Assembly: GCA_934177485.1 (NCBI GenBank) | Contig: CAKPPF010000001.1 | Span: 324,105 to 356,104 of the forward strand | DNA from: an uncultured Clostridia bacterium | Lineage (GTDB): Bacteria; Bacillota; Clostridia; TANB77; CAG-508 | Length of the DNA: 32,000 nucleotides | Direction of reading: 5' to 3' | In this document: positions 5,041 through 24,816 of the stretch, in pieces | Numbering within the stretch: position 1 is the first letter of the stretch | Layout of the letters: every line of letters begins with the position of its first letter | Notes under the pieces: generated by a model | What the model saw: the letters and a program-made list of their open reading frames with translations, nothing else | What the model was told of the DNA's origin: nothing | The model's database searches: none | Made by a program: the position numbers and the translations under genes

Positions 5041-5118
5041 TACAAGAAAAGTGGCTTTGTCACACTTTTCTTCTCTCAGATTTGAGTTTCCGAATGAAAT
5101 GAGGAAATATCAAAGGCA
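5041..5118 (-). ncRNA. Candidate small RNA encoded inside repeat copy A
   Basis: On the minus strand, TGcTATAAT (5125-5133) is followed by the M2 hairpin and the M1 stem with a TTTTCTT tail. The ends are predicted, not measured. Confidence 0.3.
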
Positions 5119-5205
5119 ATAGCTATTATAGCATATTTTGTTGAATAGAAAAATCTTCGATTTTTCCTATTCAACAAAAAGGGGCCACTATTTATACAGT
5201 GACCC
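5046..5205 (+). repeat. Mosaic hairpin repeat, copy A (modules M1-M2-M3-M4')
   Basis: About 94 percent identical by eye to copy B over roughly 135 nt. Contains GAAAAGTG..CACTTTTC, GATTTGAG-TTTCC-GAATGAAATGA-GGAAA, and TTGAATAGAAAAATC-TTCG-GATTTTTCCTATTCAA. Confidence 0.9.
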
Positions 5206-5233
5206 TTTAAGTTGTAATGATAAAGGTGAATTT

Positions 5234-5767
5234 ATGAAAAGTAAAATTACGTATTTTGTACATGGAACAACTGAAGATAACCTAACTAACAAATGTTCTG
5301 GATGGAAGCAAGCTAAATTAACGGAACTTGGAATAAAACAAGCTGAGAATTTAGGAAGAGTCAATTCGGATATTAATTTTGATGTTATAATTACTTCTGA
5401 TTTGATAAGAGCTATAGAAACTGCTAATATTGCATTCCCAGATATTAATAAAATTCAAGACAGCAGATTAAGAGAATGCAATTATGGTGATTTAGATGGC
5501 GCAGATAAAGGTTTAATAAAGTATGAAGAACATATTGAAAATGAATTTCCTAATGGCGAATCATTAAAAGAAGTTGAATACAGAATTAATGAATTTATAG
5601 AAGATATAAAAGAAAAATATAAAGGAAAAAATATAGGAATAATAGCACATAGAGCTACGCAACTTGCTTTTGAAGTGATAACTAAAAATATTAGTTGGGA
5701 AGAGGCCATAGAAAAAGATTGGAGAAAAAAAGGGTTATGGGAGCCTGGGTGGATATACGAAATATAA
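5234..5767 (+). CDS. Histidine phosphatase (phosphoglycerate mutase-like) family protein
   Basis: ATG at 5234 after AAAGGTGAA. The track start at 5138 would read through the repeat. N-terminal ITYFVHGTTEDN resembles the RHG motif region but reads VHG, and a second His sits in IIAHRAT. Confidence 0.5.
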   Translation: MKSKITYFVHGTTEDNLTNKCSGWKQAKLTELGIKQAENLGRVNSDINFDVIITSDLIRAIETANIAFPDINKIQDSRLRECNYGDLDGADKGLIKYEEHIENEFPNGESLKEVEYRINEFIEDIKEKYKGKNIGIIAHRATQLAFEVITKNISWEEAIEKDWRKKGLWEPGWIYEI

Positions 5768-5845
5768 AAAATTAATAGATATAAAATATCAATAAAAGAA
5801 AAGAATTACTGTTGAAAAATGTTGAAATATAATTAGGAGAAAAAA

Positions 5846-6451
5846 ATGAAAAAAGTATTATTTGCAACTGAAAATGAAAGCAAGGTTAAGAGATTTAAAA
5901 ATGGACTTCTAGAAAAAAATATTGAAATAATTTCTTTAAATAATATAGATAAAAAAGTTGAAGTTATAGAAAATGGAAAAAATGCAATAGAAAATGCATT
6001 AATTAAAGCAAGAGCATATGCTAAAGTGTATGATTTACCGGTATTTGCTATGGATGATAATTTATATATTGATGGAATACCAGATGAAAAACAACCTGGT
6101 ATGTATGTAAGAAGAGTTAATGGAAAAAGATTAAATGATGATGAAATGATAGAATACTATTCTAATTTGGCTCATACATATGGAAAGAATGGAAGACTTA
6201 CTTGCAGATGGGTTTATGGAATTGCAGTTATAAACAAGGATAAAGAGTCAACTTATACTTGGAGCAAAGAAGATTTTTACATAGTAGATAAACCTACAAA
6301 TAAAATTAATCCAGGTTATCCATTAAACACAATATCTATAAATAAAAGATTAAATAAATATTTTACAGATATAACAGAAGAAGATAAAAAAGAAATTCAA
6401 GAAAATGAAAATGATGTTATAGAATTCCTTTGCGAAAAAATATTAAAATAA
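5846..6451 (+). CDS. Ham1/ITPase-like non-canonical purine NTP pyrophosphatase family protein
   Basis: AGGAG RBS. The pattern FATENESKVKRF ... ENALIKARAYAK ... PVFAMDDNLYIDG ... PGMYVRR follows the RdgB/Ham1 layout. Confidence 0.55.
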   Translation: MKKVLFATENESKVKRFKNGLLEKNIEIISLNNIDKKVEVIENGKNAIENALIKARAYAKVYDLPVFAMDDNLYIDGIPDEKQPGMYVRRVNGKRLNDDEMIEYYSNLAHTYGKNGRLTCRWVYGIAVINKDKESTYTWSKEDFYIVDKPTNKINPGYPLNTISINKRLNKYFTDITEEDKKEIQENENDVIEFLCEKILK

Positions 6452-6593
6452 TGTGGAATATATGAACGAAAACAGAACAAATATCAACTAGATAATGTAA
6501 AAATAAGAAAAACATTAAATACATATGAGTTATATTATTGATAAAAATAATATAAATATTAAATTTAAAAAATATTTAAAATTATTCACATAA

Positions 6594-7187
6594 ATGAAAG
6601 GAATAAATAAAGTGAATTTTGAAAATGAGATAACTGTAACTATTAATATGTCAAAAAAAGATCTAATAAGTTTTTTTGACATTAATAATTATAAAAAAGT
6701 TGATAATTATATCGTTGATGATATATATTATGTGCCAAATGATGTGGATTTAGATGTAAATCCGTTAGAGGTTTTAAAAAAATGCATTTTAGTTAGAAGT
6801 ATTGATGATAAGAAGCATTATCTTATGTATAAATATAAAGAATATGACGAGAATGAAAATATAATTAAGCAAGGAAAATCAAAAGTACAAGTTACTAGTA
6901 AAGATGATGCTAGTTCGTTTTTAAAAACAATAGATTATAAAGAGTTAATAAGAATAGTTGACCATGTGGAAGTTTATGAAAAAGATAGATTACAAATTTG
7001 TGTTGAAAATGTTAATGATAAATATTTATTCGTTGAAATTGAAGAAAATGAAAAGTATAATACTATCCCAAAAATGATTTATGCTCTAGATAGCACAAAA
7101 ATTAAGTATGATAAAAGCAATTATTTTGTAAAAAAAGCCAAAATTATTTTTGAAGAAAAATATAGAGAGAATGGAAAAAATAGTTAA
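6594..7187 (+). CDS. CYTH-like domain protein (putative)
   Basis: N-terminal FENEITV resembles the ExExK motif but ends in T, and C-terminal YLFVEIEEN is CYTH-like. The ATG at 6594 has no RBS. GTG at 6612 sits 9 nt after AAAGGA and may be the real start. Confidence 0.35.
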   Translation: MKGINKVNFENEITVTINMSKKDLISFFDINNYKKVDNYIVDDIYYVPNDVDLDVNPLEVLKKCILVRSIDDKKHYLMYKYKEYDENENIIKQGKSKVQVTSKDDASSFLKTIDYKELIRIVDHVEVYEKDRLQICVENVNDKYLFVEIEENEKYNTIPKMIYALDSTKIKYDKSNYFVKKAKIIFEEKYRENGKNS

Positions 7188-7207
7188 TTAATAAAGGAAG
7201 CGATTTT

Positions 7208-8110
7208 ATGAATAATGAAAATAAAACAAATATTAACTGGTATCCAGGTCATATGGCAAAAACAAAGAGACAAATAACTGAAGATTTAAAATTGATTGAT
7301 GTAGTAATTGAAGTTTTAGATGCACGTATTCCAGTTTCTAGCCAGAACCCAGATATGAAAGAATTAACAAAAAATAAAAAGAAAATATATATATTAAATA
7401 AAAGCGATTTAGCGGATGAAAAAGAAACTTTAAAATGGGAAAATAAGCTTAGAACAGAGAACTCTGTTGCGATTAGTTGTGATTCAAATTCAGGCAAAGG
7501 AATTAACAAAGTAGAGAAAACCATATTAAACTTAATGCAAGAAGTACAAGAAAAAAATAACCAAAAGGGAAGAACAGGCAAACCAATAAGAGTATTAGTT
7601 TTGGGAATTCCAAATGTTGGAAAATCTTCATTTATAAATAGAATTTCTAAGAAAACAACAATGGCAGTTGGAAATAAACCAGGTGTTACAAAGCAAAAAC
7701 AATGGATTAGATTATCAAATAATATTGAACTACTAGATACCCCAGGTGTTTTATGGCCTAAATTTGAAAACCAAAAAGTTGCTCTTAATTTATCTTTTAC
7801 AGGAACTATTAAAGATGAGATATTACCAAAAGTAGAAATAGCATATAGATTATTAAAGTTTCTAATTGAAAACTATAAGTCTAATGTTCTAGAAAGATAT
7901 AAATTAGATGAAAATGTAATTCAAGATATATTAAGCAGTGATAACCAAGAAAATATTAAGATCTATGATATAATGTGCTTAATTGGTAAAAAAAGAGGCT
8001 GTATTGTATCTGGTGGAAATATTGATGATGAAAAAGTATCAAATATAATATTAGATGATTATAGAACAGGAAAACTAGGAAATATAACATTAGAAAAGGT
8101 GGAAAAATAA
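7208..8110 (+). CDS. rbgA: Ribosome biogenesis GTPase A (YlqF/RbgA)
   Basis: NWYPGHMAKTKRQ start, circularly permuted GTPase motifs (NKSDL before GIPNVGKSS, then DTPG). Confidence 0.9.
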   Translation: MNNENKTNINWYPGHMAKTKRQITEDLKLIDVVIEVLDARIPVSSQNPDMKELTKNKKKIYILNKSDLADEKETLKWENKLRTENSVAISCDSNSGKGINKVEKTILNLMQEVQEKNNQKGRTGKPIRVLVLGIPNVGKSSFINRISKKTTMAVGNKPGVTKQKQWIRLSNNIELLDTPGVLWPKFENQKVALNLSFTGTIKDEILPKVEIAYRLLKFLIENYKSNVLERYKLDENVIQDILSSDNQENIKIYDIMCLIGKKRGCIVSGGNIDDEKVSNIILDDYRTGKLGNITLEKVEK

Positions 8111-8500
8111 ATGGAAGAAATAGATGTAAACCAAATGTCTCCACTTACATGGGCTTATATGGGAGATTGCATTTATGAAAAATATGTAAGAGAATATTTA
8201 GTAACAAGTACAAAATATAAACCACATAAATTACATATAGAAGCAACAAAACTTGTAAAAGCATCTGCGCAAGCACACATATTGCAAGAATTAGAGAATG
8301 AACTTTCAGATGATGAAAAAGAAATTGTAAGAAGAACAAGAAATACAGAAAATCATCATTTGCCTAAAAATGCCACAGTACAAGAGTATATGTATGCAAC
8401 AGCTTTTGAGGGATTAATAGGCTATTTGTACTTAACAAAACAAGAAGAAAGATTAACAGAGATATTGAAAAAAAGTATACAAATAATTAAAACTCATTAA
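8111..8500 (+). CDS. mrnC: Mini-ribonuclease 3
   Basis: Starts immediately after the rbgA stop. LTWAYMGDCIYEKYVREYL and ATAFEGLIGYLYL motifs, about 130 aa. Confidence 0.85.
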   Translation: MEEIDVNQMSPLTWAYMGDCIYEKYVREYLVTSTKYKPHKLHIEATKLVKASAQAHILQELENELSDDEKEIVRRTRNTENHHLPKNATVQEYMYATAFEGLIGYLYLTKQEERLTEILKKSIQIIKTH

Positions 8501-8515
8501 GTATGCGAAAAAAGG

Positions 8516-8545
8516 TTGACAATATGATATTTTTTGTGCTATAAT
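8516..8545 (+). promoter_or_regulatory. SigA-type promoter of the rplU-rpmA operon
   Basis: TTGACA (8516-8521), 18-nt spacer, TGcTATAAT extended -10 (TATAAT at 8540-8545). Confidence 0.7.
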
Positions 8546-8551
8546 TACAAA

Positions 8552-8640
8552 ATGTAACCGCATAATTCAAGGTAATAAAAGTCTAGTTAAGTTTAGATAC
8601 CTAAAGTTTAAGGTTAGCGAGTTTGCAAAGAGGGAGGTGC
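8552..8640 (+). promoter_or_regulatory. Probable ribosomal protein L21 leader (5' UTR of rplU)
   Basis: About 100 nt of untranslated leader between a strong promoter and rplU, at the position of the Firmicute L21 leader. I could not verify the structure by eye. Confidence 0.4.
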
Positions 8641-8646
8641 TTTTGT

Positions 8647-9003
8647 ATGTACGCAGTTATAGAAGCATGTGGAAAACAATACAAAGTAACTAAAGGAGAT
8701 GTAGTATTTTTCGAAAAATTAGACGTAGAAGAAGGTAAAAAAGTAACTTTCGACAAAGTTGTTTTACTATCTAATGATGGAAAAGTAGAAGTTGGAGCTC
8801 CTTATGTAAAAGGTATAAAAGTTGAAGGCAAAGTAGTTGCTCATGGTAAAGGTAAAAAAATAATTGTTTTCAAATATAAAGCTAAAAAGAATTATAAAAG
8901 AAAACAAGGACATAGACAACCTTATACTAAAGTTGAAATAACAGCTATAAAACTTCCAGCAGCTAAAAAAGAAGTAGCAGCTGAAGAAAAAGCAAATGCT
9001 TAA
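8647..9003 (+). CDS. rplU: 50S ribosomal protein L21
   Basis: ATG at 8647 after [20 protein letters not shown] start, [13 protein letters not shown]. Confidence 0.95.
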
Positions 9004-9061
9004 ATATTAAATAAATCAAAATAATAGAGAAACTTTTAAAGTGAAAGGAGTGACTTAAAGC

Positions 9062-9322
9062 ATGGCACATAAAAAAGGGCAAGGTAGTGTTAAGAACGGT
9101 AGAGATAGTGAGTCTAAACGTCTTGGTGTAAAAAGAGCAGACGGACAATTCGTTCTTGCAGGAAATATATTGTTCAGACAAAGAGGAACAAAAATGCATC
9201 CAGGTACAAATGTAGGTAAAGGTAGTGATGATACTTTATATGCATTAGTAGATGGTAAAGTTAAATTTGAAAGATTAGGTAAGGATAAAAAACAAATAAG
9301 TGTTTACCCAGTAGAAGAATAA
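9062..9322 (+). CDS. rpmA: 50S ribosomal protein L27 (no N-terminal propeptide)
   Basis: [34 protein letters not shown]. Confidence 0.95.
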
Positions 9323-9351
9323 AAAAAGACGACATTAAGTCGTCTTTTTTG
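9322..9351 (+). terminator. Rho-independent terminator after rpmA
   Basis: AAAAAGACGAC-atta-GTCGTCTTTTTT. Confidence 0.8.
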
Positions 9352-9361
9352 TGTATTATAT

Positions 9362-9440
9362 GGGTAAGAAAAGTGGCTTCGCCACACTTTTCTTCTCGCC
9401 GATTTGAGTTTCCGAATGAAATGAGGAAATCTCAAAGGCA
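9362..9440 (-). ncRNA. Candidate small RNA encoded inside repeat copy B
   Basis: On the minus strand, TGcTATAAT (9447-9455) is followed by the M2 hairpin and GAAAAGTGTGGC-gaa-GCCACTTTTCTT. The ends are predicted. Confidence 0.3.
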
Positions 9441-9523
9441 ATAGCGATTATAGCATATTTTGTTGAATAGAAAAATCTTCGATTTTTCCTATTCGACAAA
9501 AAAGGTAGGCACAAGACCTACCT
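9368..9523 (+). repeat. Mosaic hairpin repeat, copy B (M1-M2-M3-M4)
   Basis: Same module order as copy A. M4 is AGGTAGG-cacaaga-CCTACCT at 9503-9523. Confidence 0.9.
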
Positions 9524-9549
9524 CTACAAATTGCACGCAATGGGTAAAT

Positions 9550-9573
9550 AAAAGACAGATTACTCTGTCTTTT
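9550..9573 (-). terminator. Terminator hairpin downstream of ppaC
   Basis: AAAGACAG-attact-CTGTCTTT, with T-rich flanks on both strands. Confidence 0.6.
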
Positions 9574-9581
9574 ACATATAT

Positions 9582-10505
9582 TTAAGCATTTGCTTGCAAT
9601 AGTGGCAATATTTGTTTTTTTCTTGAAACAACTCCAGGAAGAAAAGTTCTATTATTTTCTAGTTTTAAATTATATGCTTTTTCAAATATATCTAGTTTGT
9701 TTCCAAGAACTATGGCTTCAGAGTTACTGTTTATTATATCTGTAATAGCAAACATAAATAAATCTAAATTTTCTTTTTCAATATCAGAATTTATTGCTTT
9801 TTCAATATCAGTTTGATTTGCTAATACTTCATTTATATCAGCGGTATTTACTTGAGCAATTTTTACTTTTTTTCCATTCATGTCAACAATTTTAGCATCT
9901 AAATTAATAAGTTCATTAGCTGAATAATCAGATAAATCTGTACCAGCTTTTAACATATCTAACCCATAAGAATTGACATCTATATCTGCAATTTTAGCTA
10001 AGGCTTCTAATGCCTCAATATCTTTTTGAGTAGTGGTTGGAGATTTCAAAAGCAATGTGTCAGATATTATTGCACTAGCCATTAATGTTGCTTCAAGTTT
10101 ATCTATCTGTATATTTGAGTCTTTAAACATTCCGTAAAGAATTGTAGAAGTACATCCATAAGGTCTTGCTGTGTAATATAGTGGCTCAGAAGTTTGAAAA
10201 TTACATATTCTGTGATGATCTATTACCCCTATAATTTTAGCATTCTCGATTCCATCAACACTTTGTGAAAATTCATTATGATCTACTAATATTACTTTTT
10301 GGCCAGCTTCAACATTAGATATTAACATTGGTGCCTCAATTTTTAAGTAATCTAAAACAAATTGAGTTTCTTTATTAATATTTCCAAGTCTTACAGGAAC
10401 AACTGTAATATTGTTTTTTTTCTTTTCTAAAATTGACTTAACTAAAGCTGAACATATTGTATCTGTATCTGGACTTTTATGCCCAAAAACTAAAATATTT
10501 TCCAT
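9582..10505 (-). CDS. ppaC: Manganese-dependent inorganic pyrophosphatase (family II, DHH)
   Basis: Start at the ATG preceded by GGAGGAA (MENILVFGHKSPDTDTICS). DHH motifs LVDHNE and VIDHHR, about 307 aa. Confidence 0.9.
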   Translation of the reverse strand: MENILVFGHKSPDTDTICSALVKSILEKKKNNITVVPVRLGNINKETQFVLDYLKIEAPMLISNVEAGQKVILVDHNEFSQSVDGIENAKIIGVIDHHRICNFQTSEPLYYTARPYGCTSTILYGMFKDSNIQIDKLEATLMASAIISDTLLLKSPTTTQKDIEALEALAKIADIDVNSYGLDMLKAGTDLSDYSANELINLDAKIVDMNGKKVKIAQVNTADINEVLANQTDIEKAINSDIEKENLDLFMFAITDIINSNSEAIVLGNKLDIFEKAYNLKLENNRTFLPGVVSRKKQILPLLQANA

Positions 10506-10656
10506 ATTTAATTCCTCCATTTCTTCTTTAAACAATAGATATATTATCATACGAGGCAATAATAATCAATAGTTTGAAAAGAATTTGTGAATGATGGTTT
10601 GTACTTGTTTTTTTATGCTAAATGTGTTAAAATTTTCATGTACATTGGAGGTAAAA

Positions 10657-12033
10657 ATGGAACAACTAGAAATAAAGAAGCAAAAAGAATTTATAAAAAA
10701 AGTAAAAGAAATTAATATAAATAAAGAACTAAAATATTATATATTAACAATGGGATGTAGTCTAAATGAAAACGATTCTGAAAAAATTTGTGGTATGCTA
10801 GAAGAAATGGGATACCAAAAAACAGGAAATCAGAATAATGCAGATATTATTATATTTAATACTTGCTGTATTAGAGAAAATGCTGAGGATAAGTTATTTG
10901 GAAAACTTGGTGAAGTTAAAAAAGTTCATGAGAATAGAGGAACAATAATTGCAATTGGTGGTTGCATGATGCAGGAAAAACATATATTAGAAAAACTTAA
11001 TAGGAGTTATCCATATGTAGATATAATATTTGGAACTCATACATTACATAAATTGCCAGAAGATATTTTTAACATATTAGAGCATAATACAAAAATTGAA
11101 GATATACTTGATATTGATGGGAAAATATATGAAAATATACCAATAAAAAGAACAGATTCTGTAAAAGCTCAAGTTACTATTATGTATGGATGCAATAATT
11201 TTTGTAGCTATTGTATTGTGCCATATGTAAGGGGAAGAGAAAGAAGCCGTAAACCAGAAGATATTTTAAACGAAATAAAAGATTTAGCTAAAAATGGTTA
11301 TAAAGAAATAATGTTATTAGGGCAGAATGTAAATTCATATAATGGTGGAGAAAATTATAATTTTGCAAATTTGCTAAAAGATATAAATGAAATAAATGGA
11401 ATTGAAATTATAAGGTTTATATCTCCACATCCTAAAGATTTTACAGATGATGTTATAGAGGCAATAGCTAATTCTACAAAAGTTTCAAAATGTATACATT
11501 TGCCATTACAATCTGGAAGTACTAATGTATTAAAAAGTATGAACAGAAAATATACAAAAGAGCAATATTTGGAATTAGTTGATAAAATGAAAAGAAAAAT
11601 TCCTGATTTGTCTTTAACAACAGATATAATTGTTGGATTTCCAGGAGAAACTGAAGAAGATTTTGAAGATACATTAGATGTGGTAAAAAAAGTAGGCTTT
11701 GAACAAGTATTTATGTTTATATATTCAAGAAGAAGAGGAACTGTAGCAGATCAAATGAAAAATCAAATTCCTGAAGACATAAAGCATAAAAGATTTGATA
11801 GATTAAAAGAATTAGTAGAAAAACAAATTGAAGAAAATAATGACAAATATGTTGGAACTATTCAAAAAATTCTTATTGATGGAAAAAGTAAAAATAATGA
11901 AAATAAACTAAGTGGAAGAACAACTAGTAATAAGGTTGTAATAATTGATGCTGATGAATCATACATAAATAAATCAATTAATGTTAAAATAGTAGAAAAT
12001 TGTAAATGGTATTTAAGAGGAGAAATAGCATAA
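10657..12033 (+). CDS. miaB: tRNA-2-methylthio-N6-dimethylallyladenosine synthase
   Basis: ATG at 10657 after GGAGGT. N-terminal MTTase domain, radical-SAM CNNFCSYC and a C-terminal TRAM-like end. Sits upstream of mutS as in many Firmicutes. Confidence 0.85.
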   Translation: MEQLEIKKQKEFIKKVKEININKELKYYILTMGCSLNENDSEKICGMLEEMGYQKTGNQNNADIIIFNTCCIRENAEDKLFGKLGEVKKVHENRGTIIAIGGCMMQEKHILEKLNRSYPYVDIIFGTHTLHKLPEDIFNILEHNTKIEDILDIDGKIYENIPIKRTDSVKAQVTIMYGCNNFCSYCIVPYVRGRERSRKPEDILNEIKDLAKNGYKEIMLLGQNVNSYNGGENYNFANLLKDINEINGIEIIRFISPHPKDFTDDVIEAIANSTKVSKCIHLPLQSGSTNVLKSMNRKYTKEQYLELVDKMKRKIPDLSLTTDIIVGFPGETEEDFEDTLDVVKKVGFEQVFMFIYSRRRGTVADQMKNQIPEDIKHKRFDRLKELVEKQIEENNDKYVGTIQKILIDGKSKNNENKLSGRTTSNKVVIIDADESYINKSINVKIVENCKWYLRGEIA

Positions 12034-12671
12034 TGAATGTGAATGGTTTAGAACAACATGAAAGAGTAGAACAAGCATATAAACTTATAATGCAAGAAGG
12101 TCTTTCTTTAAGAGCTGCATCAGAGCAGGTTGGAATTGAAAGAAAAAAATTAAAAACTTTAATAGAAAACACGCTAAATGAAGAAGAAATGGTAAAATTT
12201 CAGGATAGAGTTAGTAGCAAAAACAAAAAAGAAAAAAATACAGGAAGAGTTGGTAGAGATAAAAAGAAAAAAGCTCTAGAATCTGATGAGTATATAATTG
12301 CAATAGGAGAACTTGCTAAAAGAAAAATATTACCAGAGTGGATAGATGAAATCTATTTAAGATGTCAAGAAAAAAAGCAAACTAAGATTGCAAAAGATAC
12401 ATTAGCAATAAAACTTGTTGAGCTATTGGAATATTTTGACAAAAGAAACGATGAAATTCAAGAGGATTCTCCACAATATTTAACATCTGAGGATGTTGTT
12501 GACATGATTTTAAGATGTCCGAGATTAATAACAATGGGACTTGAAAAAAATATTATTGTAAAAATTGATGCAATAACCTCAAAAAATAACGGAAATATAA
12601 GAGAAGCAAACAATCAAATAAGAAATAACCCAAGTATTTTTACTAAAAGTTTAGAACAAATAACAAAGTAA
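12033..12671 (+). CDS. Hypothetical protein with N-terminal HTH-like segment
   Basis: Its ATG overlaps the miaB stop (TAATG). GLSLRAASEQVGIERKKLKTLIE looks like a helix-turn-helix, followed by a Lys-rich linker. The C-terminal half carries two P-x-(L/I)-(I/F)-T-x-(G/S)-L-E motifs. Confidence 0.5.
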   Translation: MNVNGLEQHERVEQAYKLIMQEGLSLRAASEQVGIERKKLKTLIENTLNEEEMVKFQDRVSSKNKKEKNTGRVGRDKKKKALESDEYIIAIGELAKRKILPEWIDEIYLRCQEKKQTKIAKDTLAIKLVELLEYFDKRNDEIQEDSPQYLTSEDVVDMILRCPRLITMGLEKNIIVKIDAITSKNNGNIREANNQIRNNPSIFTKSLEQITK

Positions 12672-15391: not shown

Positions 15392-15571
15392 ATGAGTAAT
15401 AACCAAAAATCATCACATATACAGTGCGACAACAATTGCGATCGCTGCTATATGTACGAGGACTGTCCTCATTTTGAGGATCACAAATCCGAACGTAACG
15501 GCTTGATTAAACGGTTAAAAAAACTGTTTAAAAAAAAGGATAAAGTTATAAGGACTTATCCTTTCAAGTAA
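15392..15571 (+). CDS. Small Cys-rich basic protein, 59 aa (below the ORF-track cut-off)
   Basis: AGGTGA 9 nt upstream. Translation is MSNNQKSSHIQCDNNCDRCYMYEDCPHFEDHKSERNGLIKRLKKLFKKKDKVIRTYPFK. It has its own promoter and terminator. G+C is visibly higher than in the neighbouring genes. Confidence 0.5.
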   Translation: MSNNQKSSHIQCDNNCDRCYMYEDCPHFEDHKSERNGLIKRLKKLFKKKDKVIRTYPFK

Positions 15572-15657
15572 GAGCTAATGCCTTTGACATTTCCTCATTT
15601 GATTCGGAAACCCAAATCGGCAAAAACAAAGGGTGACTTAGGTCACTCTTTGTTTTT
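15572..15657 (-). repeat. Mosaic hairpin repeat, copy C (M2-M1, reverse), which also acts as terminator of the small ORF
   Basis: GCCTTTGACATTTCCTCATTTGATTCGGAAACCCAAATCGGC, then AAAAACAAAGGGTGAC-ttag-GTCACTCTTTGTTTTT. Confidence 0.85.
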
Positions 15658-15684: not shown

Positions 15685-15760
15685 TTGTCAGTGGGGACGG
15701 AGTTTTTTGACAGAATTTTTCAAAATAAATTCTGTCAAAAAACTCCGTCCCCATTGACAA
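15685..15760. repeat. 34-bp inverted repeat (hairpin with 8-nt loop), probable bidirectional terminator at the asnB 3' end
   Basis: TTGTCAGTGGGGACGGAGTTTTTTGACAGAATTT (15685-15718) pairs with AAATTCTGTCAAAAAACTCCGTCCCCATTGACAA (15727-15760). The only imperfection is one G.T position. Confidence 0.85.
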
Positions 15761-17618: not shown

Positions 17619-17731
17619 AAAAAACCTCCATAAATAAAAATTTACTATAATTAATATATGAAAAAATATTTAAAAACTTGACAAAAATAAAAAAAGAATG
17701 TTATTCTAAATTTATAAAGGAGTGATTAGAT

Positions 17732-18661: not shown

Positions 18662-18688
18662 AGGATTATAAATTGAACAGGAGAAAAT

Positions 18689-19432
18689 ATGAATATTTCT
18701 TTAGATAGTTTAGAAAATCTTATAAAAAGTGAAATTAATAAAGGATATATCATTCACGTTAATAAAAGCCAAGAAGAAAAAATAAACATTGAAGTAACAG
18801 GTGAAAAAGATATTACTGTTTATGTGCCAAAACAAATGGTTAAAGATACTATTAATTTAGTTCAAGATTGTTATAAAGAAGCTGTATCCAAAGGTACAAT
18901 TAAATTAAATACAAAACAAGGCGTAGAAAAACAAATTGAAACCATTTTTAATATGCGTGATATTAAAAAGCGTTTAAAACAAATTCCAGACATGAAACAG
19001 GAAAAATGTGACGAAAAAAATGAAGAAGCATATGAACATATAATGGAAATAATAAATATGCGTGATATGGATATGTACATAAAAAAATATGAAGATTACT
19101 TAGATAACATAAAAAGTGCAAGAACAATTAAAAAAAATAAAAGAATGAAAAGAAAAATAAAAAGTAGTGGTATGCTTTCAAAAGATGATATAATAAGTAT
19201 TTTAATTTCAATAAAGAATAAAAGCGGTACTTTTATAAATAATTTAAAAAAACATAAAAAAATAATTATAGCTGTAATTTTAGCATCTGTTGCAACAACT
19301 TGCGGTGTCAAAAGCATAGCTAGTAAAGAAATAAAAGATAATACCATGCCATCTATTACTGAAGAGTCTACAAAAGAAGAAAATGATTTTCAAGTAATAA
19401 ACACACCTACTAAAGATTATACTGAAAGATAA
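18689..19432 (+). CDS. Hypothetical single-pass membrane protein
   Basis: AGGAGA RBS 27 nt after the previous stop. Same architecture as its neighbour (N-domain, KKNKRMKRKIK linker, TM IIIAVILASVATTCGV). Ends in DYTER. Confidence 0.6.
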   Translation: MNISLDSLENLIKSEINKGYIIHVNKSQEEKINIEVTGEKDITVYVPKQMVKDTINLVQDCYKEAVSKGTIKLNTKQGVEKQIETIFNMRDIKKRLKQIPDMKQEKCDEKNEEAYEHIMEIINMRDMDMYIKKYEDYLDNIKSARTIKKNKRMKRKIKSSGMLSKDDIISILISIKNKSGTFINNLKKHKKIIIAVILASVATTCGVKSIASKEIKDNTMPSITEESTKEENDFQVINTPTKDYTER

Positions 19433-19450
19433 GAACAAATAAATTTTATG

Positions 19451-19564
19451 TTACTCTTTTTGTTATCGTCCGATTTAAATTTTTGACTGTAAAGAGAAAA
19501 TCCCAAAGGAAATGCATTTTGCTAAGTTTAATATAGTAGGAAATAAGAAATTTCTTACTATATT
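19451..19564 (+). repeat. Mosaic hairpin repeat, copy D (partial M1, variant M2, M5)
   Basis: CCGATTTAAATTTTTGACTGTAAAGAGAAAATCCCAAAGG matches the copy G variant. M5 is AATATAGTAGGAAAT-aagaa-ATTTCTTACTATATT. Confidence 0.75.
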
Positions 19565-19583
19565 AAAAATTTTGAAAAAAATG

Positions 19584-19612
19584 TTGCAATATAAAATATA
19601 AAATGGTATTAT
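19584..19612 (+). promoter_or_regulatory. Predicted promoter upstream of pyrG
   Basis: TTGCAA (19584-19589), 17-nt spacer, TGgTATTAT (TATTAT at 19607-19612). Confidence 0.45.
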
Positions 19613-19620
19613 AGTAATAT

Positions 19621-19671
19621 AGATTTAAAAAAAACCCCGTTTTTCGGAAAGTATTTTTTAAATCTATTTTT
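19621..19671 (+). terminator. Hairpin plus T-run just downstream of the predicted promoter (possible pyrG leader attenuator, or terminator of the upstream operon)
   Basis: AGATTTAAAAAA (19621-19632) pairs with TTTTTTAAATCT (19654-19665) around an inner CCG-ttttt-CGG, followed by ATTTTTT. Confidence 0.4.
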
Positions 19672-19871
19672 TATATAGTAGGAATTTTGGAGAAATTTCC
19701 TACTATATAAAATGCTATAATCGCTATTGCCTTTGAGATTTGCTCATTTCATTTGCAAACTCAAATCGGCGAGAACAAAGGGCGACTAAAGTCGCTTTGT
19801 TGTTATATAGCAAAATCGAAGATTTTCTAAAACATAATTTAGTATTGTAGGGGCAGGTCTTGTGCCTGCCC
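19672..19871 (-). repeat. Mosaic hairpin repeat, copy E (M5-M2-M1-degenerate M3-M4, reverse)
   Basis: The 102 nt at 19700-19801 match 21574-21675 with a single mismatch. M4 is GGGCAGG-tcttgtg-CCTGCCC at 19851-19871. Confidence 0.9.
19728..19804 (+). ncRNA. Candidate small RNA encoded inside repeat copy E
   Basis: TGcTATAAT (19713-19721), then hairpin GCCTTTGAG-ATTTGC-tcatttcattt-GCAAA-CTCAAA-tc-GGC, then ACAAAGGGCGAC-taaa-GTCGCTTTGTTGTT. The ends are predicted. Confidence 0.3.
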
Positions 19872-19918
19872 ACTAAAAGTGAAACGAAGTTTTATATTTA
19901 TTAGTTTAGGAGGAGTTT

Positions 19919-21520
19919 ATGAACACAAAATACATATTTATAACAGGTGGAGTAGTATCAGGACTTGGAAAAGGAATAACTGCTGCATCATTAGGAAGAT
20001 TATTAAAAAATAGAGGATATAAAGTAACAATCCAAAAGTTTGATCCATATATAAATGTTGACCCAGGAACAATGAGCCCATATGAACATGGCGAAGTTTT
20101 TGTTACAGATGATGGAGCAGAAACAGATTTAGACTTAGGACATTATGAAAGATTTATAGATGAAAGTTTAACTAGAAATTCTAGTATTACATCTGGAAGA
20201 ATTTATCAAAATGTTATAAATAAAGAAAGAAGAGGAGATTATTTAGGAAAAACTGTCCAAGTAATTCCACATATAACAAATGAGATAAAACAAAACATAT
20301 ATAGCTTTGAAGATGAAGATATAGATATTGTAATAACAGAACTAGGAGGAACAGTTGGAGATATAGAAAGTTTGGCATTTTTAGAGGCAATACGTCAAGT
20401 AGGAATAGAAAAAGATGCAGAAGATGTAATGTATATTCATGTAACACTTCTCCCATACATAACAGGCTCAAATGAAATAAAATCAAAACCAACTCAGCAC
20501 TCTGTAAAAGAGTTGCAATCTTTAGGAATAAAACCAGACATATTGGTATGTAGAAGTGATATGCCAATACCAGATGGAATAAAGGACAAACTATCATTAT
20601 TTTGCAATGTAAAAAAAGAAAGTGTTATTGCAAATTTGACTGCAGATAATTTATATGCAGTACCTTTAATGCTAGAAAAACAAGGGTTAGCATTGCAAGT
20701 TTGTAAACACTTGAAACTTGCTAATATTGAACCACATAATGAAAAATGGGACGAAATGATAGGAAATATTAGAAAAGTAAAAGACGGAGAAGTAACAATA
20801 GGAATAGTTGGAAAATATGTAAAACTTGAAGATTCATATTTGTCTGTAACCGAAAGCTTGCATCATGCTGGTTTTGCAAATAATGTAAAAGTAAATATTA
20901 AATATATAGACTGTGAAACTGTTACAAGAGAAAATGCAAAAAGAATTCTTGGAGAACTAGATGGAATAATAGTTCCAGGTGGTTTTGGAAATAGAGGAAT
21001 AGAAGGAAAAATAAATACAGTAGAATATGCAAGAACAAATAATGTACCATTTTTAGGAATATGTTTAGGAATGCAAATGGCAGTTGTTGAATTTGCAAGA
21101 AATGTATTAGGGCTTTCAGATGCAAACTCAGAAGAATTTGATGAAAATTCAAAAAATCAGGTAATACATATTATGGATGAACAAAAAAATGTAGACAAAA
21201 AAGGTGGAACAATGAGACTTGGAAAATATCCATGTATATTAAAAAAGGATAGTCTAGCATATAAAGTTTATGGTAAAAAGGAAATATCAGAAAGACATAG
21301 ACATAGATTTGAGTATAACAATGACTATAGGGAAAAATTAGAAAATGCAGGCTTAATTTGTTCTGGAACATCACCAGATGGAAAATTAGTTGAAATAGTA
21401 GAAATTCCATCATTAGATTATTTTATAGCAGGACAATTTCATCCAGAATTTAAATCTAGACCAGATAAACCATCACCATTATTTGTTGGATTGGTTAAAG
21501 CTGCAAAAGAAAAAGTTTAA
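19919..21520 (+). CDS. pyrG: CTP synthase
   Basis: [22 protein letters not shown]-terminus, glutamine amidotransferase GICLGMQ, 533 aa. Confidence 0.97.
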
Positions 21521-21546
21521 AAAAGCGACTTTGAGTCGCTTTTTTT
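21521..21546 (+). terminator. Rho-independent terminator after pyrG
   Basis: AAAAGCGAC-tttga-GTCGCTTTTTTT. Confidence 0.8.
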
Positions 21547-21705
21547 ATATAGTAGGAAATTTCTCCGAAATTCCTACTATATAAAATGCTATAATCGCTA
21601 TTGCCTTTGAGATTTGCTCATTTCATTCGCAAACTCAAATCGGCGAGAACAAAGGGCGACTAAAGTCGCTTTGTTCTATAGCAAAAATCTTCGATTTTTG
21701 CTATA
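21546..21705 (-). repeat. Mosaic hairpin repeat, copy F (M5-M2-M1-M3, reverse)
   Basis: Near-identical to copy E. M3 is the perfect hairpin TATAGCAAAAATC-TTCG-GATTTTTGCTATA. Confidence 0.9.
21602..21678 (+). ncRNA. Candidate small RNA encoded inside repeat copy F
   Basis: TGcTATAAT (21587-21595), then the M2 hairpin and GAACAAAGGGCGAC-taaa-GTCGCTTTGTTC. The ends are predicted. Confidence 0.3.
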
Positions 21706-21749
21706 GAAAAAAACACTCTTTCACCGTTCGGAAAAACGGTAAAAGAGTG
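21706..21749 (-). terminator. Strong rho-independent terminator on the minus strand
   Basis: Read on the minus strand: CACTCTTTTACCGTT-tttccg-AACGGTGAAAGAGTG followed by TTTTTTT. Confidence 0.75.
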
Positions 21750-21754
21750 AGAGG

Positions 21755-21910
21755 TTACTTTAAGATACACTTCGTATCTATGGTATGCCATAAGGCGAGT
21801 TTAACTGGTGGAGTATAGCACTCACTTCCTCTAAAGCCAAACCAGGTTGCAACAAATATTATTGCAACAAAAATATATATAATAGTAGCCTCCTCGGAGA
21901 ACCACCACAC
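21755..21910 (-). other. Orphan transcription unit: small hydrophobic peptide (type I toxin-like) or structured small RNA
   Basis: A frame is open from 21922 or 21910 to the TAA at 21755-21757. It encodes ..WWFSEEATIIYIFVAIIFVATWFGFRGSECYTPPVKLALWHTIDTKCILK. A GAGGAGG lies inside it, and no ATG, GTG or TTG follows the predicted transcription start. Confidence 0.4.
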
Positions 21911-21912
21911 AT

Positions 21913-21941
21913 ATATTAACATAAAGCAAAGGAAATGTCAA
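21913..21941 (-). promoter_or_regulatory. Strong SigA-type promoter on the minus strand
   Basis: On the minus strand: TTGACA (21941-21936), 17-nt spacer, TGtTAATAT (-10 at 21918-21913). Confidence 0.6.
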
Positions 21942-22052
21942 TATTTGGTTATACTTTTTATCTCATAGCTACTATTATTGTTCTAAATTTAATTTTTAAG
22001 AATATAATTATATATATAAATGTGAATAATATGTGAATTTAGAATAAAGATA

Positions 22053-22081
22053 TTGACATTTAATATAAAAGGGTATATTAT
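22053..22081 (+). promoter_or_regulatory. groESL promoter
   Basis: TTGACA (22053-22058), 17-nt spacer, TATTAT (22076-22081), immediately upstream of CIRCE. Confidence 0.7.
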
Positions 22082-22082
22082 T

Positions 22083-22416
<334 letters not shown>

Positions 22417-22432
22417 AAGCAGAGATTAATTA

Positions 22433-24086
<1,654 letters not shown>

Positions 24087-24126
24087 AATTTAAATTTTGT
24101 AAAAAATAATATAATAACCATAAATA

Positions 24127-24155
24127 TTGACATACGCAAAAACGTACGCTATAAT
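24127..24155 (+). promoter_or_regulatory. Promoter of the toxin-antitoxin operon with candidate operator
   Basis: TTGACA (24127-24132), 17-nt spacer, TATAAT (24150-24155). The spacer contains the palindrome CGTACG (24143-24148) and two TACGC repeats. Confidence 0.65.
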
Positions 24156-24176
24156 AAACATAGGAGGTGTTATATT

Positions 24177-24425
24177 ATGACAAACACAAATATTACAAAC
24201 TTTAGAAAAGATATATATGAAATGTTAGAACAAACAATAAAATATAATGAGCCTATAAATATATCAACCAAAAATGGAAATGCTGTTGTTTTATCAGAAG
24301 AAGACTATAATGGGCTAATAGAAACTGTTTATTTATCTAGTATTCCTAAAATGAGAGAAAAATTGATAAAAGGAAAAAATGTACCTTTAGAAGATTGCGT
24401 AGCAGAAGATGAGGTGGAGTGGTAA
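24177..24425 (+). CDS. Type II antitoxin, Phd/YefM family
   Basis: AGGAGG RBS, 82 aa. ITNFRKDIYEMLEQTIKYNEPINIS...AVVLSEEDYNGLIETVYL is the YefM fold pattern. Directly abuts the toxin gene. Confidence 0.85.
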   Translation: MTNTNITNFRKDIYEMLEQTIKYNEPINISTKNGNAVVLSEEDYNGLIETVYLSSIPKMREKLIKGKNVPLEDCVAEDEVEW

Positions 24426-24692
24426 ATGTACAAAATAGTATATACTAAAACTGCAGTAAAAGATATTCCACATTTAAAAGCCTCTAATTTAGATAAAAAA
24501 ACATTAGCATTAATTGAAATTTTAAAAGAGAATCCGTTTCAAAATCCACCACCATATAAAAAACTTGTTGGAGATTTACAGGACTTATATTCGAGAAGAA
24601 TTAATATAAAACACAGATTAGTATACCAAGTATATTCAACAGAAAAAACAGTAAAAATAGTTAGTGTGTGGACACATTACGAAAACATATAA
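24426..24692 (+). CDS. Type II toxin, YoeB/Txe family mRNA interferase
   Basis: 88 aa. YSRRINIKHRLVYQV...VKIVSVWTHYE is the YoeB C-terminal signature. Confidence 0.85.
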   Translation: MYKIVYTKTAVKDIPHLKASNLDKKTLALIEILKENPFQNPPPYKKLVGDLQDLYSRRINIKHRLVYQVYSTEKTVKIVSVWTHYENI

Positions 24693-24695
24693 ATA

Positions 24696-24775
24696 GAACA
24701 AAGCAACTTTATATCGCTCTTTGTTCTTGCCAGATTTGAGTTTTCAACTGTAAGGAGATAATCTCAAATGGCGTA
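24696..24775 (+). repeat. Mosaic hairpin repeat, copy G (M1, variant M2)
   Basis: GAACAAAG..CTTTGTTC, then CCAGATTTGAGTTTTCAACTGTAAGGAGATAATCTCAAATGG. Confidence 0.8.
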
Positions 24776-24779
24776 AAAG

Positions 24780-24816
24780 AAAGACTTGAAATAAAAAGCT
24801 TATTTCAAGTCTTTTT
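24780..24816 (+). terminator. Rho-independent terminator
   Basis: AAGACTTGAAATAA-aaagc-TTATTTCAAGTCTTTTTG. Confidence 0.7.

What the first reader, a model, noticed from the sequence alone, without database searches (positions are those of the whole stretch)
5046..24816. Mosaic family of hairpin-module intergenic repeats: seven loci in 32 kb
Seven intergenic loci share a small vocabulary of hairpin modules, combined differently and present in both orientations. The loci are 5046-5205, 9368-9523, 15572-15657, 19451-19564, 19672-19871, 21546-21705 and 24696-24775. M1 is a terminator-like stem (GAAAAGTG..CACTTTTC or GAACAAAG..CTTTGTTC). M2 has the core GCCGATTTGAG-TTTCC-GAATGAAATGA-GGAAA-TCTCAAAGGC plus a tail AATAGCGATTATAGCAT. 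M3 is a long stem closed by a TTCG loop. M4 is a 7-bp GC-rich stem around the loop CACAAGA. M5 is TATATAGTAGGAA..TTCCTACTATATA. Copies differ by paired changes that keep the stems intact. The M2 inner stem is TTTCC/GGAAA in A, B and C but TTTGC/GCAAA in E and F. M4 is AGGTAGG/CCTACCT at 9503-9523 but GGGCAGG/CCTGCCC at 19851-19871, with the same loop. M3 is TTGAATAGAAAAATC/GATTTTTCCTATTCAA in A and B but TATAGCAAAAATC/GATTTTTGCTATA in F, with the same TTCG loop. M5 also occurs as two loop isomers: the centre of copy E is the reverse complement of the centre of copy F apart from one base. Every copy sits at a gene 3' end. No transposase or RAYT-like gene is present in the window. The layout recalls the BIME/REP mosaics of enterobacteria, but I do not recognise these sequences as a described family.
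Basis: seen in the sequence. Interest (0 to 1): 0.8.

Follow-up and report, generated by a model that had tools for sequence, protein, structure and literature searches.

The report
Terminator-hugging hairpin repeat family
The seven loci are real copies of an undescribed family of about 130-base, non-coding, hairpin-built repeats, found in many uncultured gut Clostridia, that come and go between related genomes and usually sit directly against an existing transcription terminator.

Summary

A pattern scan found the same core in 52 species-level MAGs of uncultured gut Clostridia with genomes of about 1.5-1.7 Mb. Rfam, phage and plasmid collections gave no match.

The usual unit is M1 hairpin, conserved M2 hairpin, a 13-17 nt conserved tail, then an AT-rich hairpin (M5 or M3). 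M2 shows real paired changes at three base pairs and a conserved tandem G·A.

Three filled/empty site pairs show that units of about 127-135 nt are gained or lost. There are no terminal inverted repeats and no clear target duplication. No transposase was seen in the window or in 716 neighbouring ORFs.

New finding: the M5 end abuts a resident intrinsic terminator at a fixed distance, and the element usually lies opposite to the locally dominant gene strand (66:10).

Best reading: a non-autonomous, REP/BOX-like mobile repeat that lodges just after terminators. The mobilising enzyme is unknown.

Main rivals: a small-RNA gene family, or a host 3'-end RNA element.

Interest is moderate.

The parts
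5046..5205 (+). Copy A. M1 5046-5070, M2 5076-5117, tail 5118-5134, M3 5140-5175, then a GC hairpin at 5181-5205 that reads as a minus-strand terminator.
   Evidence: Sequence. CM hit 5071-5140, 80.4 bits. Terminator-like site 5205-5182 (-).
9368..9523 (+). Copy B. M1 9368-9392, M2 9398-9439, tail 9440-9456, M3 9462-9497, M4 9503-9523. On the minus strand M4 is a hairpin followed by TTTTTTG.
   Evidence: Sequence. CM hit 9393-9462, 94.6 bits. 94% identical to A over 140 nt. M4.
15562..15657 (-). Copy C. M1 15623-15657, M2 core 15581-15618, decayed tail, no M5. It abuts the stop codon of a 59-codon ORF on the + strand.
   Evidence: Sequence. CM hit 15562-15626, 53.5 bits.
19433..19569 (+). Copy D, decayed. 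M1-like hairpin 19433-19464, M2 19470-19509 with three A·C mismatches, variant tail 19510-19526, M5 19527-19567. It starts directly after the stop codon of the 247-aa gene. It is absent from the same site in L118.
   Evidence: Sequence. CM hit 31.9 bits. Filled/empty comparison.
19669..19893 (-). Copy E plus add-ons. M5 19669-19712, tail 19713-19729, M2 core 19730-19767, M1 19772-19805, decayed M3 19806-19835, M4 19851-19871. The block 19674 to about 19893 is missing in L118. It is inserted between the pyrG leader hairpin with T-run and the pyrG ribosome-binding site.
   Evidence: Sequence. CM hit 19706-19775, 93.7 bits..
21543..21705 (-). Copy F. M5 21543-21586, tail 21587-21603, M2 core 21604-21641, M1 21647-21676, M3 21677-21705. 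M5 begins where the T-run of the pyrG terminator ends.
   Evidence: Sequence. CM hit 21580-21649, 96.6 bits. Folds.
24696..24772 (+). Copy G, decayed. M1 24696-24726, starting 3 nt after the yoeB stop codon. M2 24729-24772, with one extra A-T pair inserted on both sides. No tail or M5. It runs straight into a resident bidirectional terminator.
   Evidence: Sequence. CM hit 24725-24792, 41.1 bits.
21521..21547 (+). Resident pyrG terminator (AAAAAGCGACTTTGAGTCGCTTTTTTT), against which copy F is lodged.
19623..19673 (+). Resident pyrG-leader hairpin with T-run (TAGATTTAAAAAA...TTTTTTAAATCTA TTTTTT). It is conserved in L118, which has no element. Copy E is lodged against it.
24776..24821 (.). Resident bidirectional terminator next to copy G (A-run, AGACTTGAAATAA/TTATTTCAAGTCT stem, T-run).
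   Evidence: Sequence.

Best explanation
This is a family of non-autonomous, non-coding, modular DNA repeats, in the same broad class as REP/BIME, BOX and other intergenic repeats.

The unit. It is about 127-135 nt long. In the orientation of copy A it reads:
- M1, a terminator-like hairpin with several sequence types.
- A YGCC linker.
- M2, a conserved 17-layer hairpin: GCC, a GA bulge, UUUGAG, UUUSC, tandem G·A, a 2-bp stem and a triloop.
- A conserved tail, UAGCGAUURUAGC, followed by a T-run.
- An AT-rich perfect hairpin (M5, or its relative M3).
M3 and M4 are further small hairpin modules that can be added on either side.

What is shown:
- Units are gained or lost as blocks between related genomes.
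- They lie almost only between genes.
- Their M5 end is joined directly to the T-tract of a resident intrinsic terminator.
- Their orientation is mostly opposite to the locally dominant gene strand.

What is inferred:
- M2 plus tail is the part recognised by a trans-acting enzyme encoded elsewhere. That would explain why it stays conserved and covaries while the outer hairpins drift.
- The enzyme acts on folded single-stranded DNA next to terminator hairpins, in the manner of HUH/Y1 transposases or of group IIC intron homing.
- Once inserted after a terminator the element is nearly neutral, and it adds a cluster of hairpins to the 3' region.
For: - Seven copies in 32 kb, and 119 model hits in 699 kb of related MAG DNA.
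- 52 assemblies carry copies.
- The closest available pyrG relatives have none in 619 kb, so the distribution is patchy.
- Three filled/empty pairs: L049 vs L061, a 127-nt block with flanks 99% and 94% identical; and window D and window E vs L118.
- The shared boundaries run from GAACAAAG to the A-run after M5. The flanks are unique.
- There are no terminal inverted repeats.
- M2 covaries at three pairs. The covariation score is 0.186 against 0.076 in shuffles (0 of 500 reach it), and 97.9% of cells are paired.
- Only 2 of 113 copies lie inside a called ORF.
- A resident terminator pointing into the element lies beyond M5 in 43 of 97 copies, against 2 of 97 on the M1 side.
- In 40 of 54 of those, the terminator stem ends 56-69 nt from the M2 core, so its T-tract runs straight into M5.
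- Concrete cases: F after the pyrG terminator, E after the pyrG leader hairpin, and L079 after the 6S RNA terminator.
- Orientation is opposite to the local majority gene strand in 66 cases against 10. The three cases in which the flanking genes differ from the majority follow the majority.
- In the closed chromosome OZ006978.1 the orientation flips together with the gene strand between 0.3-0.6 Mb and 1.33 Mb.
- Two copies lie on contigs called viral.
Against: - No transposase, RAYT, reverse transcriptase or other candidate enzyme was found in the window or among 716 ORFs next to copies. Whole genomes could not be searched.
- No target-site duplication or exact junction rule could be read. All three junctions fall in repeats or A/T runs, and the L049/L061 case can equally be a deletion between two direct M1 copies.
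- In the window itself the orientation is mixed: 4 copies on the + strand and 3 on the - strand among mostly + genes.
- Copies within one genome are only slightly more alike than copies between genomes (78.7% vs 73.3%). The nearest neighbour is in the same genome for 28 of 71. This is not the picture of a recent burst.
- The strong conservation of M2 and the tail across 52 species would also fit a host function.
- The outer M2 stem was fixed by the search pattern, so its conservation is partly ascertainment.
Confidence: 0.55

Rival explanations
1. A multi-copy small-RNA gene read from the strand opposite to copy A. The tail, read in reverse, is GCTAYAAT, with TG in front of it in many copies, and would act as a -10 box. 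Transcription would start at the foot of the reversed M2 hairpin and stop at the reversed M1 hairpin, giving an RNA of about 80 nt.
For: - The reversed tail is TGCTATAAT in the window copies.
- The only variable hexamer position is the third one, TATAAT vs TACAAT.
- The hexamer lies 7-8 nt before the hairpin foot.
- M1 is the more stable hairpin on this strand in 82 of 101 copies, and there it is followed directly by UUUGUUCU.
- This strand is the one co-oriented with neighbouring genes.
- Copies usually sit after the previous gene's terminator, as independent genes do.
Against: - There is no -35 box.
- The TG is missing in the GCTAGC...TAGCTTTTT subfamily (about a third of copies) and in the AGCC subfamily.
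- Several subfamilies have no -10 at all, yet keep M2 intact: GGCTGCGTTTAGCC in L038, L053 and L083, and GATTTCAGCC in L011, L031 and L033.
- Conservation runs evenly over 13 nt, not only over the hexamer.
- M2 is less stable on this strand in 95 of 101 copies. The conserved G·A/G·A becomes U·C/U·C, and wobbles become A·C mismatches (21 U·G against about 5 A·C).
- Copy E sits inside the pyrG leader, where an efficient M1 terminator on this strand would cut off an essential gene.
- Copies such as L103 lack M1.
Confidence: 0.15
2. A host-kept 3'-end RNA element. The hairpin cluster would act in transcripts as a back-up terminator or insulator, as a barrier to 3' exonucleases, or as the binding site of an RNA-binding protein on the copy-A strand. 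Copies would spread mainly by recombination rather than by transposition.
For: - M2 and the tail are conserved across 52 species, with compensatory changes and a conserved tandem G·A in YGAR context on the copy-A strand.
- Both strands fold far better than shuffles, with z = -8.2 and -9.6.
- M1 is flagged as terminator-like in both directions.
- When co-oriented with the upstream gene, the element often starts at or just after the stop codon: D and G in the window, and distances down to 25-43 nt to the M2 start.
- Clusters of hairpins have been proposed to cause termination (abstract of PMC8355165).
- REP elements are known to stabilise upstream mRNA (my own knowledge).
Against: - In most genomes the copy-A strand is antisense to both neighbouring genes (54 against 11 in co-directional gaps) and lies after a proper terminator. 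It would seldom be transcribed.
- Close relatives do without the element at the same sites. 619 kb around pyrG in relatives has none.
- Decayed copies (D, G, and those) show that loss of pairing is tolerated.
- Paired changes in palindromes can also arise at DNA level by template switching. The loop inversion in M5 is a DNA-level event.
Confidence: 0.2
3. Nothing special: ordinary intrinsic terminators that look alike by chance in an AT-rich genome.
For: M1 and several neighbouring hairpins do look like terminators.
Against: - 140-nt matches at 94% identity.
- Model E-values down to 7e-19, with a clean gap to background.
- The same 70-nt core is found in 52 assemblies.
- M2, the tail and M5 are not followed by T-runs in a terminator-like way.
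Confidence: 0.01

Closest known systems
REP / BIME elements of enterobacteria (REPIN-RAYT systems)
   Same: They are intergenic, multi-copy, hairpin-forming and mosaic in arrangement. They occur in both orientations and lie near gene 3' ends. Stems are kept by paired changes. An RTAG motif (ATAG or GTAG) is conserved just 5' of a hairpin (the tail before M5).
   Different: The unit here is about 130 nt with three unlike hairpins and a conserved single-stranded tail, not a 20-40 nt palindrome. Inverted doublets are not the rule. No RAYT gene was found in the DNA I could see. The element is joined to resident terminators at a fixed distance.
BOX elements of Streptococcus pneumoniae (boxA-boxB-boxC), and the bcr repeats of the Bacillus cereus group
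   Same: They are modular repeats of 100-200 nt in Firmicutes, built from a few modules in variable number. They are non-coding, strongly folded and intergenic, and no transposase has been assigned to them. This comparison rests on my own knowledge.
   Different: No sequence relationship was tested or is evident. The conserved M2 and tail and the abutment to terminators are not features I know from BOX or bcr.
Group IIC introns
   Same: They are found immediately downstream of intrinsic terminator motifs (an inverted repeat followed by Ts) in a fixed orientation (abstracts of PMC1702495 and PMC4748821). That matches the placement seen here.
   Different: The element is about 130 nt long. It has no ribozyme domains, no reverse-transcriptase ORF and no Rfam intron match. 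The resemblance is in target choice only.
IS200/IS605-derived miniature elements (PATEs)
   Same: They have no terminal inverted repeats and no clear target duplication. They have hairpins near both ends. Their orientation is tied to one DNA strand over long stretches, which would fit single-strand transposition at the replication fork.
   Different: The two end hairpins (M1 and M5) are unlike each other. No conserved 4-5 nt target could be read. No TnpA was found. The window shows both orientations within 20 kb.

Membership tests
REP/BIME (REPIN-RAYT) | Unit is a 20-40 nt imperfect palindrome with a conserved GTAG at its 5' foot. | tested here: not met
   The unit is 127-135 nt with three different hairpins. 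An RTAG is conserved in the tail 6-7 nt before M5, but it is not at the hairpin foot.
REP/BIME (REPIN-RAYT) | Copies typically occur as inverted doublets or alternating clusters. | tested here: not met
   Most loci hold single copies. Of 16 multi-copy loci, 11 have all copies in the same orientation. An inverted arrangement is seen only in a few, such as L016.
REP/BIME (REPIN-RAYT) | A RAYT (Y1/HUH) gene in the genome, flanked by the repeats. | tested here: inconclusive
   None in the window. No recurrent candidate among 716 ORFs of 110 loci. Whole genomes could not be searched.
Classical MITE | Terminal inverted repeats. | tested here: not met
   The ends are GAACAAAG... and ...CCTACTATATAAAAA. 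They are not inverted repeats of each other.
Classical MITE | Target-site duplication. | tested here: inconclusive
   Three filled/empty pairs show no clear duplication. The junctions are ambiguous: an 18-nt repeat in L049, and A/T runs at D and E.
Classical MITE | Short, non-coding, multi-copy, with presence/absence between relatives. | tested here: met
IS200/IS605-derived PATE | No TIR or TSD, and subterminal hairpins at both ends. | tested here: met
   M1 at one end and M5 at the other.
IS200/IS605-derived PATE | Orientation fixed relative to the direction of replication. | tested here: inconclusive
   66:10 against the local majority gene strand, and a flip within OZ006978.1. Replichores were not mapped, and the window is mixed (4:3).
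IS200/IS605-derived PATE | Left and right hairpins alike, and a cognate TnpA present. | tested here: not met
   M1 and M5 are unrelated in sequence. No TnpA was seen, with the limits stated above.
Group IIC intron | Sits just downstream of an intrinsic terminator in a fixed orientation. | tested here: met
   43/97 against 2/97, and a fixed distance of 56-69 nt in 40 of 54.
Group IIC intron | Ribozyme domains I-VI, usually with an RT ORF. | tested here: not met
   No Rfam intron hit at any threshold. The element is about 130 nt and non-coding.
Any Rfam 15 family | Score at or above the family's gathering threshold. | tested here: not met
   0 matches at gathering. Only far sub-threshold hairpin or miRNA matches at E up to 5.
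Independent sRNA gene | Own promoter and own terminator conserved in all members. | tested here: inconclusive
   A -10-like GCTAYAAT is conserved in most copies but absent in several subfamilies. There is no -35. An M1 terminator is present in most copies but missing in some.
BOX elements (S. pneumoniae) | Sequence similarity to the boxA, boxB and boxC modules. | not tested
   No BOX reference sequence was at hand. The resemblance is architectural only.

The most novel reading that the evidence does not exclude
The element is a terminator-seeking mobile element of a new mechanistic type. It would be a roughly 130-nt unit without inverted ends or target duplication. Its conserved M2/tail module would be handled by a so far unidentified enzyme that recognises the folded terminator hairpin in single-stranded DNA. 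Alternatively, the enzyme would use the 3' end of terminated transcripts, since the element begins exactly where such transcripts end. Either way the element joins in one orientation at the end of the T-tract. That would make it a non-intron counterpart of group IIC intron homing.
Probability: 0.15. Interest if true: 0.75.

Novelty: new variant of a known kind. Interest (0 to 1): 0.5.

Why it matters
Small structured repeats such as REP, BOX and Correia elements shape transcription ends, mRNA stability and genome rearrangement. For several of them it is still unknown how they move.

This family offers three things:
- A widespread, well-conserved example in an uncultured, small-genome branch of gut Clostridia from human, rabbit and mouse samples.
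- A clear placement rule: joined to the T-tract of an existing terminator, in one orientation.
- A conserved hairpin that is an obvious handle for finding the partner protein.

For annotation it matters at once. These units mimic terminators, promoters (TGCTATAAT) and small-RNA genes, and they would mislead predictors in these MAGs.

Tried and rejected
1. Promoter reading. I first read the reversed tail (TGCTATAAT) as the key, that is promoter, then hairpin, then terminator. It is kept as a rival but demoted. Whole subfamilies lack the -10 or the TG, M2 folds worse on that strand, and E sits in the pyrG leader.

2. M1 sequence type does not decide orientation relative to genes.

3. M1 as a duplicated target terminator. 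This fits L049, L045 and F, but not most copies. Solo M1 hairpins are rare.

4. Long-range pairing between the tail and other parts. Consensus folding on either strand shows only three independent hairpins.

5. Thermodynamic choice of strand for the whole unit. There is no difference: -62.2 vs -63.1 kcal/mol, and 54 vs 47 copies.

6. The 247-aa neighbour protein as a probe for relatives. It gave only two near-identical hits, so that search was wasted.

7. A literal search of papers for the core sequences found only unrelated primers.

8. Phage and plasmid collections gave no match.

9. A hunt for a recurrent transposase-like ORF next to copies found only housekeeping orthologues.

10. DNA-uptake-sequence idea, prompted by comM and dprA in the window. 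No part of the element occurs on its own elsewhere in the window.

Full report

Yes. Self-comparison of the window gives two pairs of long direct repeats: 5044-5183 vs 9366-9505, and 19667-19801 vs 21541-21675, each 94% identical. Inverted matches of 62-90 nt tie A and B on the + strand to C, E and F on the - strand.

I read all seven loci and aligned them in one orientation. I then built a covariance model of the M2 hairpin plus tail from 74 non-identical copies (A3 and R1). The eighth hit has 12.7 bits and E = 1. M1, M3, M4 and M5 occur nowhere else in the window.

- M3 closes with a 3-nt loop.
- D and G are decayed. G lacks the tail and M5. C lacks M5.
- E is not at a gene 3' end. It lies in the pyrG leader.

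The window holds housekeeping genes: mutL, miaA, sepF, divIVA, rplU, rpmA, a MiaB-like enzyme, mutS, asnB, pyrG, groES/EL, yefM-yoeB, comM, dprA and spoIVA. There is no transposase.

**2. Where else is it?**

Six were chance hits in unrelated phyla. The rest come from 52 assemblies labelled as uncultured Clostridia or Clostridium sp. (for example CAG:452 and 26_21), from human, rabbit and mouse gut. The closed chromosomes are 1.55-1.70 Mb.

The model finds 119 copies in 699 kb of these loci, about 17 of them beyond the ones that brought the loci in.

By contrast, 80 loci around pyrG from the nearest relatives available in metagenomes (61-88% protein identity, 619 kb) hold none. So the distribution is patchy.

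Rfam 15 has nothing at gathering score. At permissive thresholds there are only irrelevant hairpin matches. Phage and plasmid collections have no match. Two contigs called viral carry true copies. A text search for the core sequences found nothing relevant.

**3. Anatomy**

Across genomes the usual unit, written in the orientation of copy A, has five parts.

- *M1.* A terminator-like hairpin in at least three unrelated sequence types, plus unique ones.
- *Linker.* YGCC(C).
- *M2.*
- *Tail.* UAGCGAUURUAGC followed by a T-run.
- *An AT-rich perfect hairpin flanked by a T-run and an A-run.* This is M5, or M3, which shares the core TAGGAAA/TTTCCTA, or other hairpins in some lineages.

Its apparent 11-nt loop is G-A, a 2-bp stem, a triloop, then G-A. 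The whole is a continuous 17-layer helix with a 5' GA bulge, one bulged U and a tandem G·A in YGAR context.

Three pairs carry changes on both sides:
- Columns 20/34: C-G 35, U-A 26, G-C 9.
- Columns 24/30: A-U 35, C-G 31, G-C 4.
- Columns 25/29: U-A 65, C-G 4.

Overall 97.9% of cells are paired. The covariation score is 0.186 against 0.076 in shuffles (0 of 500 reach it), and it collapses when partners are slid. The six outer pairs were fixed by my search pattern and say nothing. Diverged copies found by the model mostly show decay rather than compensation there.

Copy G has an A-T pair inserted on both sides of the outer stem. M4 is a separate small module: a GC stem, the loop CACAAGA, then TACAAT. 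It has four stem variants that all pair. Consensus folding shows three independent hairpins and no long-range pairing on either strand.

**4. Which strand?**

The whole unit folds equally well on both strands: -62.2 and -63.1 kcal/mol, with z = -8.2 and -9.6.

Module by module the picture differs:
- M2 is more stable on the copy-A strand in 95 of 101 copies, by a mean of 2.3 kcal/mol. The causes are the G·A pairs and the excess of U·G wobbles over A·C mismatches (about 21 against 5).
- M1 is more stable on the opposite strand in 82 of 101 copies. There the CC bulge becomes GG, which pairs with U.

Copies are related to one another, so these counts are not independent. I could not settle the strand.

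**5. It is gained and lost**

Three filled/empty comparisons were found.

- *(a) L049 vs L061.* The flanks are 99% and 94% identical. A 127-nt block (M1-M2-tail-M5) is present in one and absent in the other. The empty site keeps one perfect M1-like hairpin, and the junction is ambiguous over 18 nt. This could be an insertion or a deletion between two direct M1 copies.
- *(b) and (c) The window vs L118.* L118 has a pyrG 86% identical to the window's. It shares the pyrG leader block (window 19571-19673) almost base for base, but it lacks D on one side and the E block on the other.

An alignment of 20 copies with their flanks shows similarity starting at GAACAAAG and ending with the A-run after M5. 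The sequence outside is unique. The ends are not inverted repeats, and no target duplication can be read.

Copies within one assembly are only a little more alike than copies between assemblies (78.7% vs 73.3%). The nearest neighbour is in the same assembly for 28 of 71. The family is therefore old, with several subfamilies living side by side. It is not one recent burst.

L033 and L100 have flanks 72% identical and are both filled, so some sites are old.

**6. Placement rule (new)**

Copies are intergenic: 2 of 113 lie inside a called ORF. In gaps between co-directional genes the copy-A strand is antisense to the genes in 54 cases and sense in 11. There are 14 copies in convergent gaps and 4 in divergent gaps. 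M1 type does not matter.

The M5 end faces the 3' end of a gene. More precisely, it abuts that gene's terminator:
- A hairpin with at least 3 G-C pairs and a T-run, pointing into the element, is found beyond M5 in 43 of 97 copies. On the M1 side it is found in 2 of 97.
- The distance from the M2 core to that stem is 56-69 nt in 40 of 54 cases. So the terminator's T-tract is the run that flanks M5.

In the window:
- F follows the pyrG terminator.
- E follows the leader hairpin and T-run, which L118 has without any element.
- B follows M4, which on that strand is a hairpin plus T6, after the terminator of the DHH gene.
- G runs into a bidirectional terminator.
- A abuts a minus-strand terminator-like hairpin.

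In L079 a copy follows the terminator of 6S RNA.

Measured against the dominant gene strand of each 8-kb locus, orientation is 66 to 10. The three copies whose flanking genes run against the local majority follow the majority. In OZ006978.1 the orientation flips together with the gene strand.

This could mean a tie to replication direction, to the adjacent terminator, or to selection against polar effects. The sample is too small to decide, and the window itself is mixed.

**7. What it most likely is**

The features are block-wise gain and loss, a patchy taxonomic spread, a non-coding and intergenic position, hairpins at both ends, no inverted ends, no visible duplication, and a fixed junction to terminators. 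Together they fit a non-autonomous mobile repeat best.

I infer, but have not shown, that M2 and the tail are the handle for an enzyme encoded elsewhere, and that insertion happens next to terminator hairpins in single-stranded DNA.

The weak points are plain:
- No enzyme was found.
- The junctions are ambiguous.
- The high conservation of M2 and the tail across 52 species would suit a host function as well.

Two rivals remain open.
- *An sRNA gene on the opposite strand:* a -10 box in the tail, the reversed M2 as the body, and the reversed M1 as the terminator. The layout is attractive, but subfamilies without the -10 keep M2, M2 folds worse on that strand, and E sits in the leader of an essential gene.
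- *A host 3'-end RNA element.*

Chance resemblance of ordinary terminators is excluded.

**8. Comparison with known kinds**

In behaviour the family works like REP/BIME, BOX or bcr repeats: modular, folded and intergenic. Its choice of site is the one described for group IIC introns, which lie just after terminator motifs (abstracts of PMC1702495 and PMC4748821).

It fails the defining tests for REP/RAYT (unit size, doublets, RAYT not seen), for classical MITEs (no inverted ends) and for group II introns (no ribozyme). It only partly fits IS200/IS605 miniatures.

I therefore file it as a new variant of a known kind: an undescribed family of structured intergenic repeats with a terminator-abutting habit. 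It is of moderate interest. It would be of higher interest if the mobilising mechanism proves new.

Noticed in passing
window 21706-21941, minus strand: A likely unannotated non-coding RNA of about 190 nt. It has a TTGACA-17-TAATAT promoter-like site at 21941-21913, relatively GC-rich sequence, and a strong terminator at 21749-21714 (16-bp stem plus T7). There is no Rfam match even in a narrow, permissive search. Copy F starts right after its terminator.
   Followed up: partly
window 15392-15571 (+): A 59-codon ORF rich in Cys (MSNNQKSSHIQCDNNCDRCYMYEDCPHF...), downstream of mutS and richer in G+C than its surroundings. It has no Pfam match. L079 also has a small Cys-containing ORF (3860-4027) downstream of its mutS, but the two do not look alike. 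Copy C abuts its stop codon.
   Followed up: partly
window 15685-15760: A 34-nt inverted repeat, 97% complementary, with an 8-nt spacer (TTGTCAGTGGGGACGGAGTTTTTTGACAGAATTT / reverse), directly after the asnB stop codon. It is not part of the repeat family.
   Followed up: no
window 19623-19673 and L118 2280-2330: A conserved pyrG leader: a long AT-rich hairpin (TAGATTTAAAAAA...TTTTTTAAATCTA) around CCCCGTTTTTCGG, followed by T6. It looks like an attenuator and is nearly identical in a relative whose pyrG is 86% identical. The inner part also reads as a minus-strand terminator (TTCCGAAAAACGGGG plus T8).
   Followed up: partly
window 26317-27345 and 27376-27804: The comM-like Mg-chelatase gene is split into two ORFs: the ChlI and Mg_chelatase N-part, and the Mg_chelatase_C part. 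This could be a frameshift, a pseudogene or an assembly error.
   Followed up: no
window 22083-22109: A CIRCE-type inverted repeat (TTAGCAGTC-N9-GACTGCTAA) lies between a TTGACA-17-TATTAT promoter and groES. The same arrangement is seen in L103, where a copy of the repeat lies just upstream of the groES promoter.
   Followed up: no
L079 4336-4530 (+): 6S RNA (Rfam RF00013, 84.4 bits). Its terminator runs straight into an M3 hairpin and a copy of the repeat.
   Followed up: yes
L016 4600-5560: Three copies surround one 142-aa secreted or membrane protein gene: two in tandem upstream (one decayed, with different M1 types) and one inverted downstream. This shows that tandem and inverted arrangements exist.
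   Followed up: partly
L197 3668-3737 and L199 488-557 (IMG/VR contigs): True copies of the repeat (89.7 and 91.3 bits) lie on contigs classified as viral. L197 also has an M4-like GC hairpin nearby. I did not check whether these contigs are real prophages.
   Followed up: no
window 24177-24692: A yefM-yoeB type II toxin-antitoxin pair. Copy G starts 3 nt after the yoeB stop codon.
   Followed up: no
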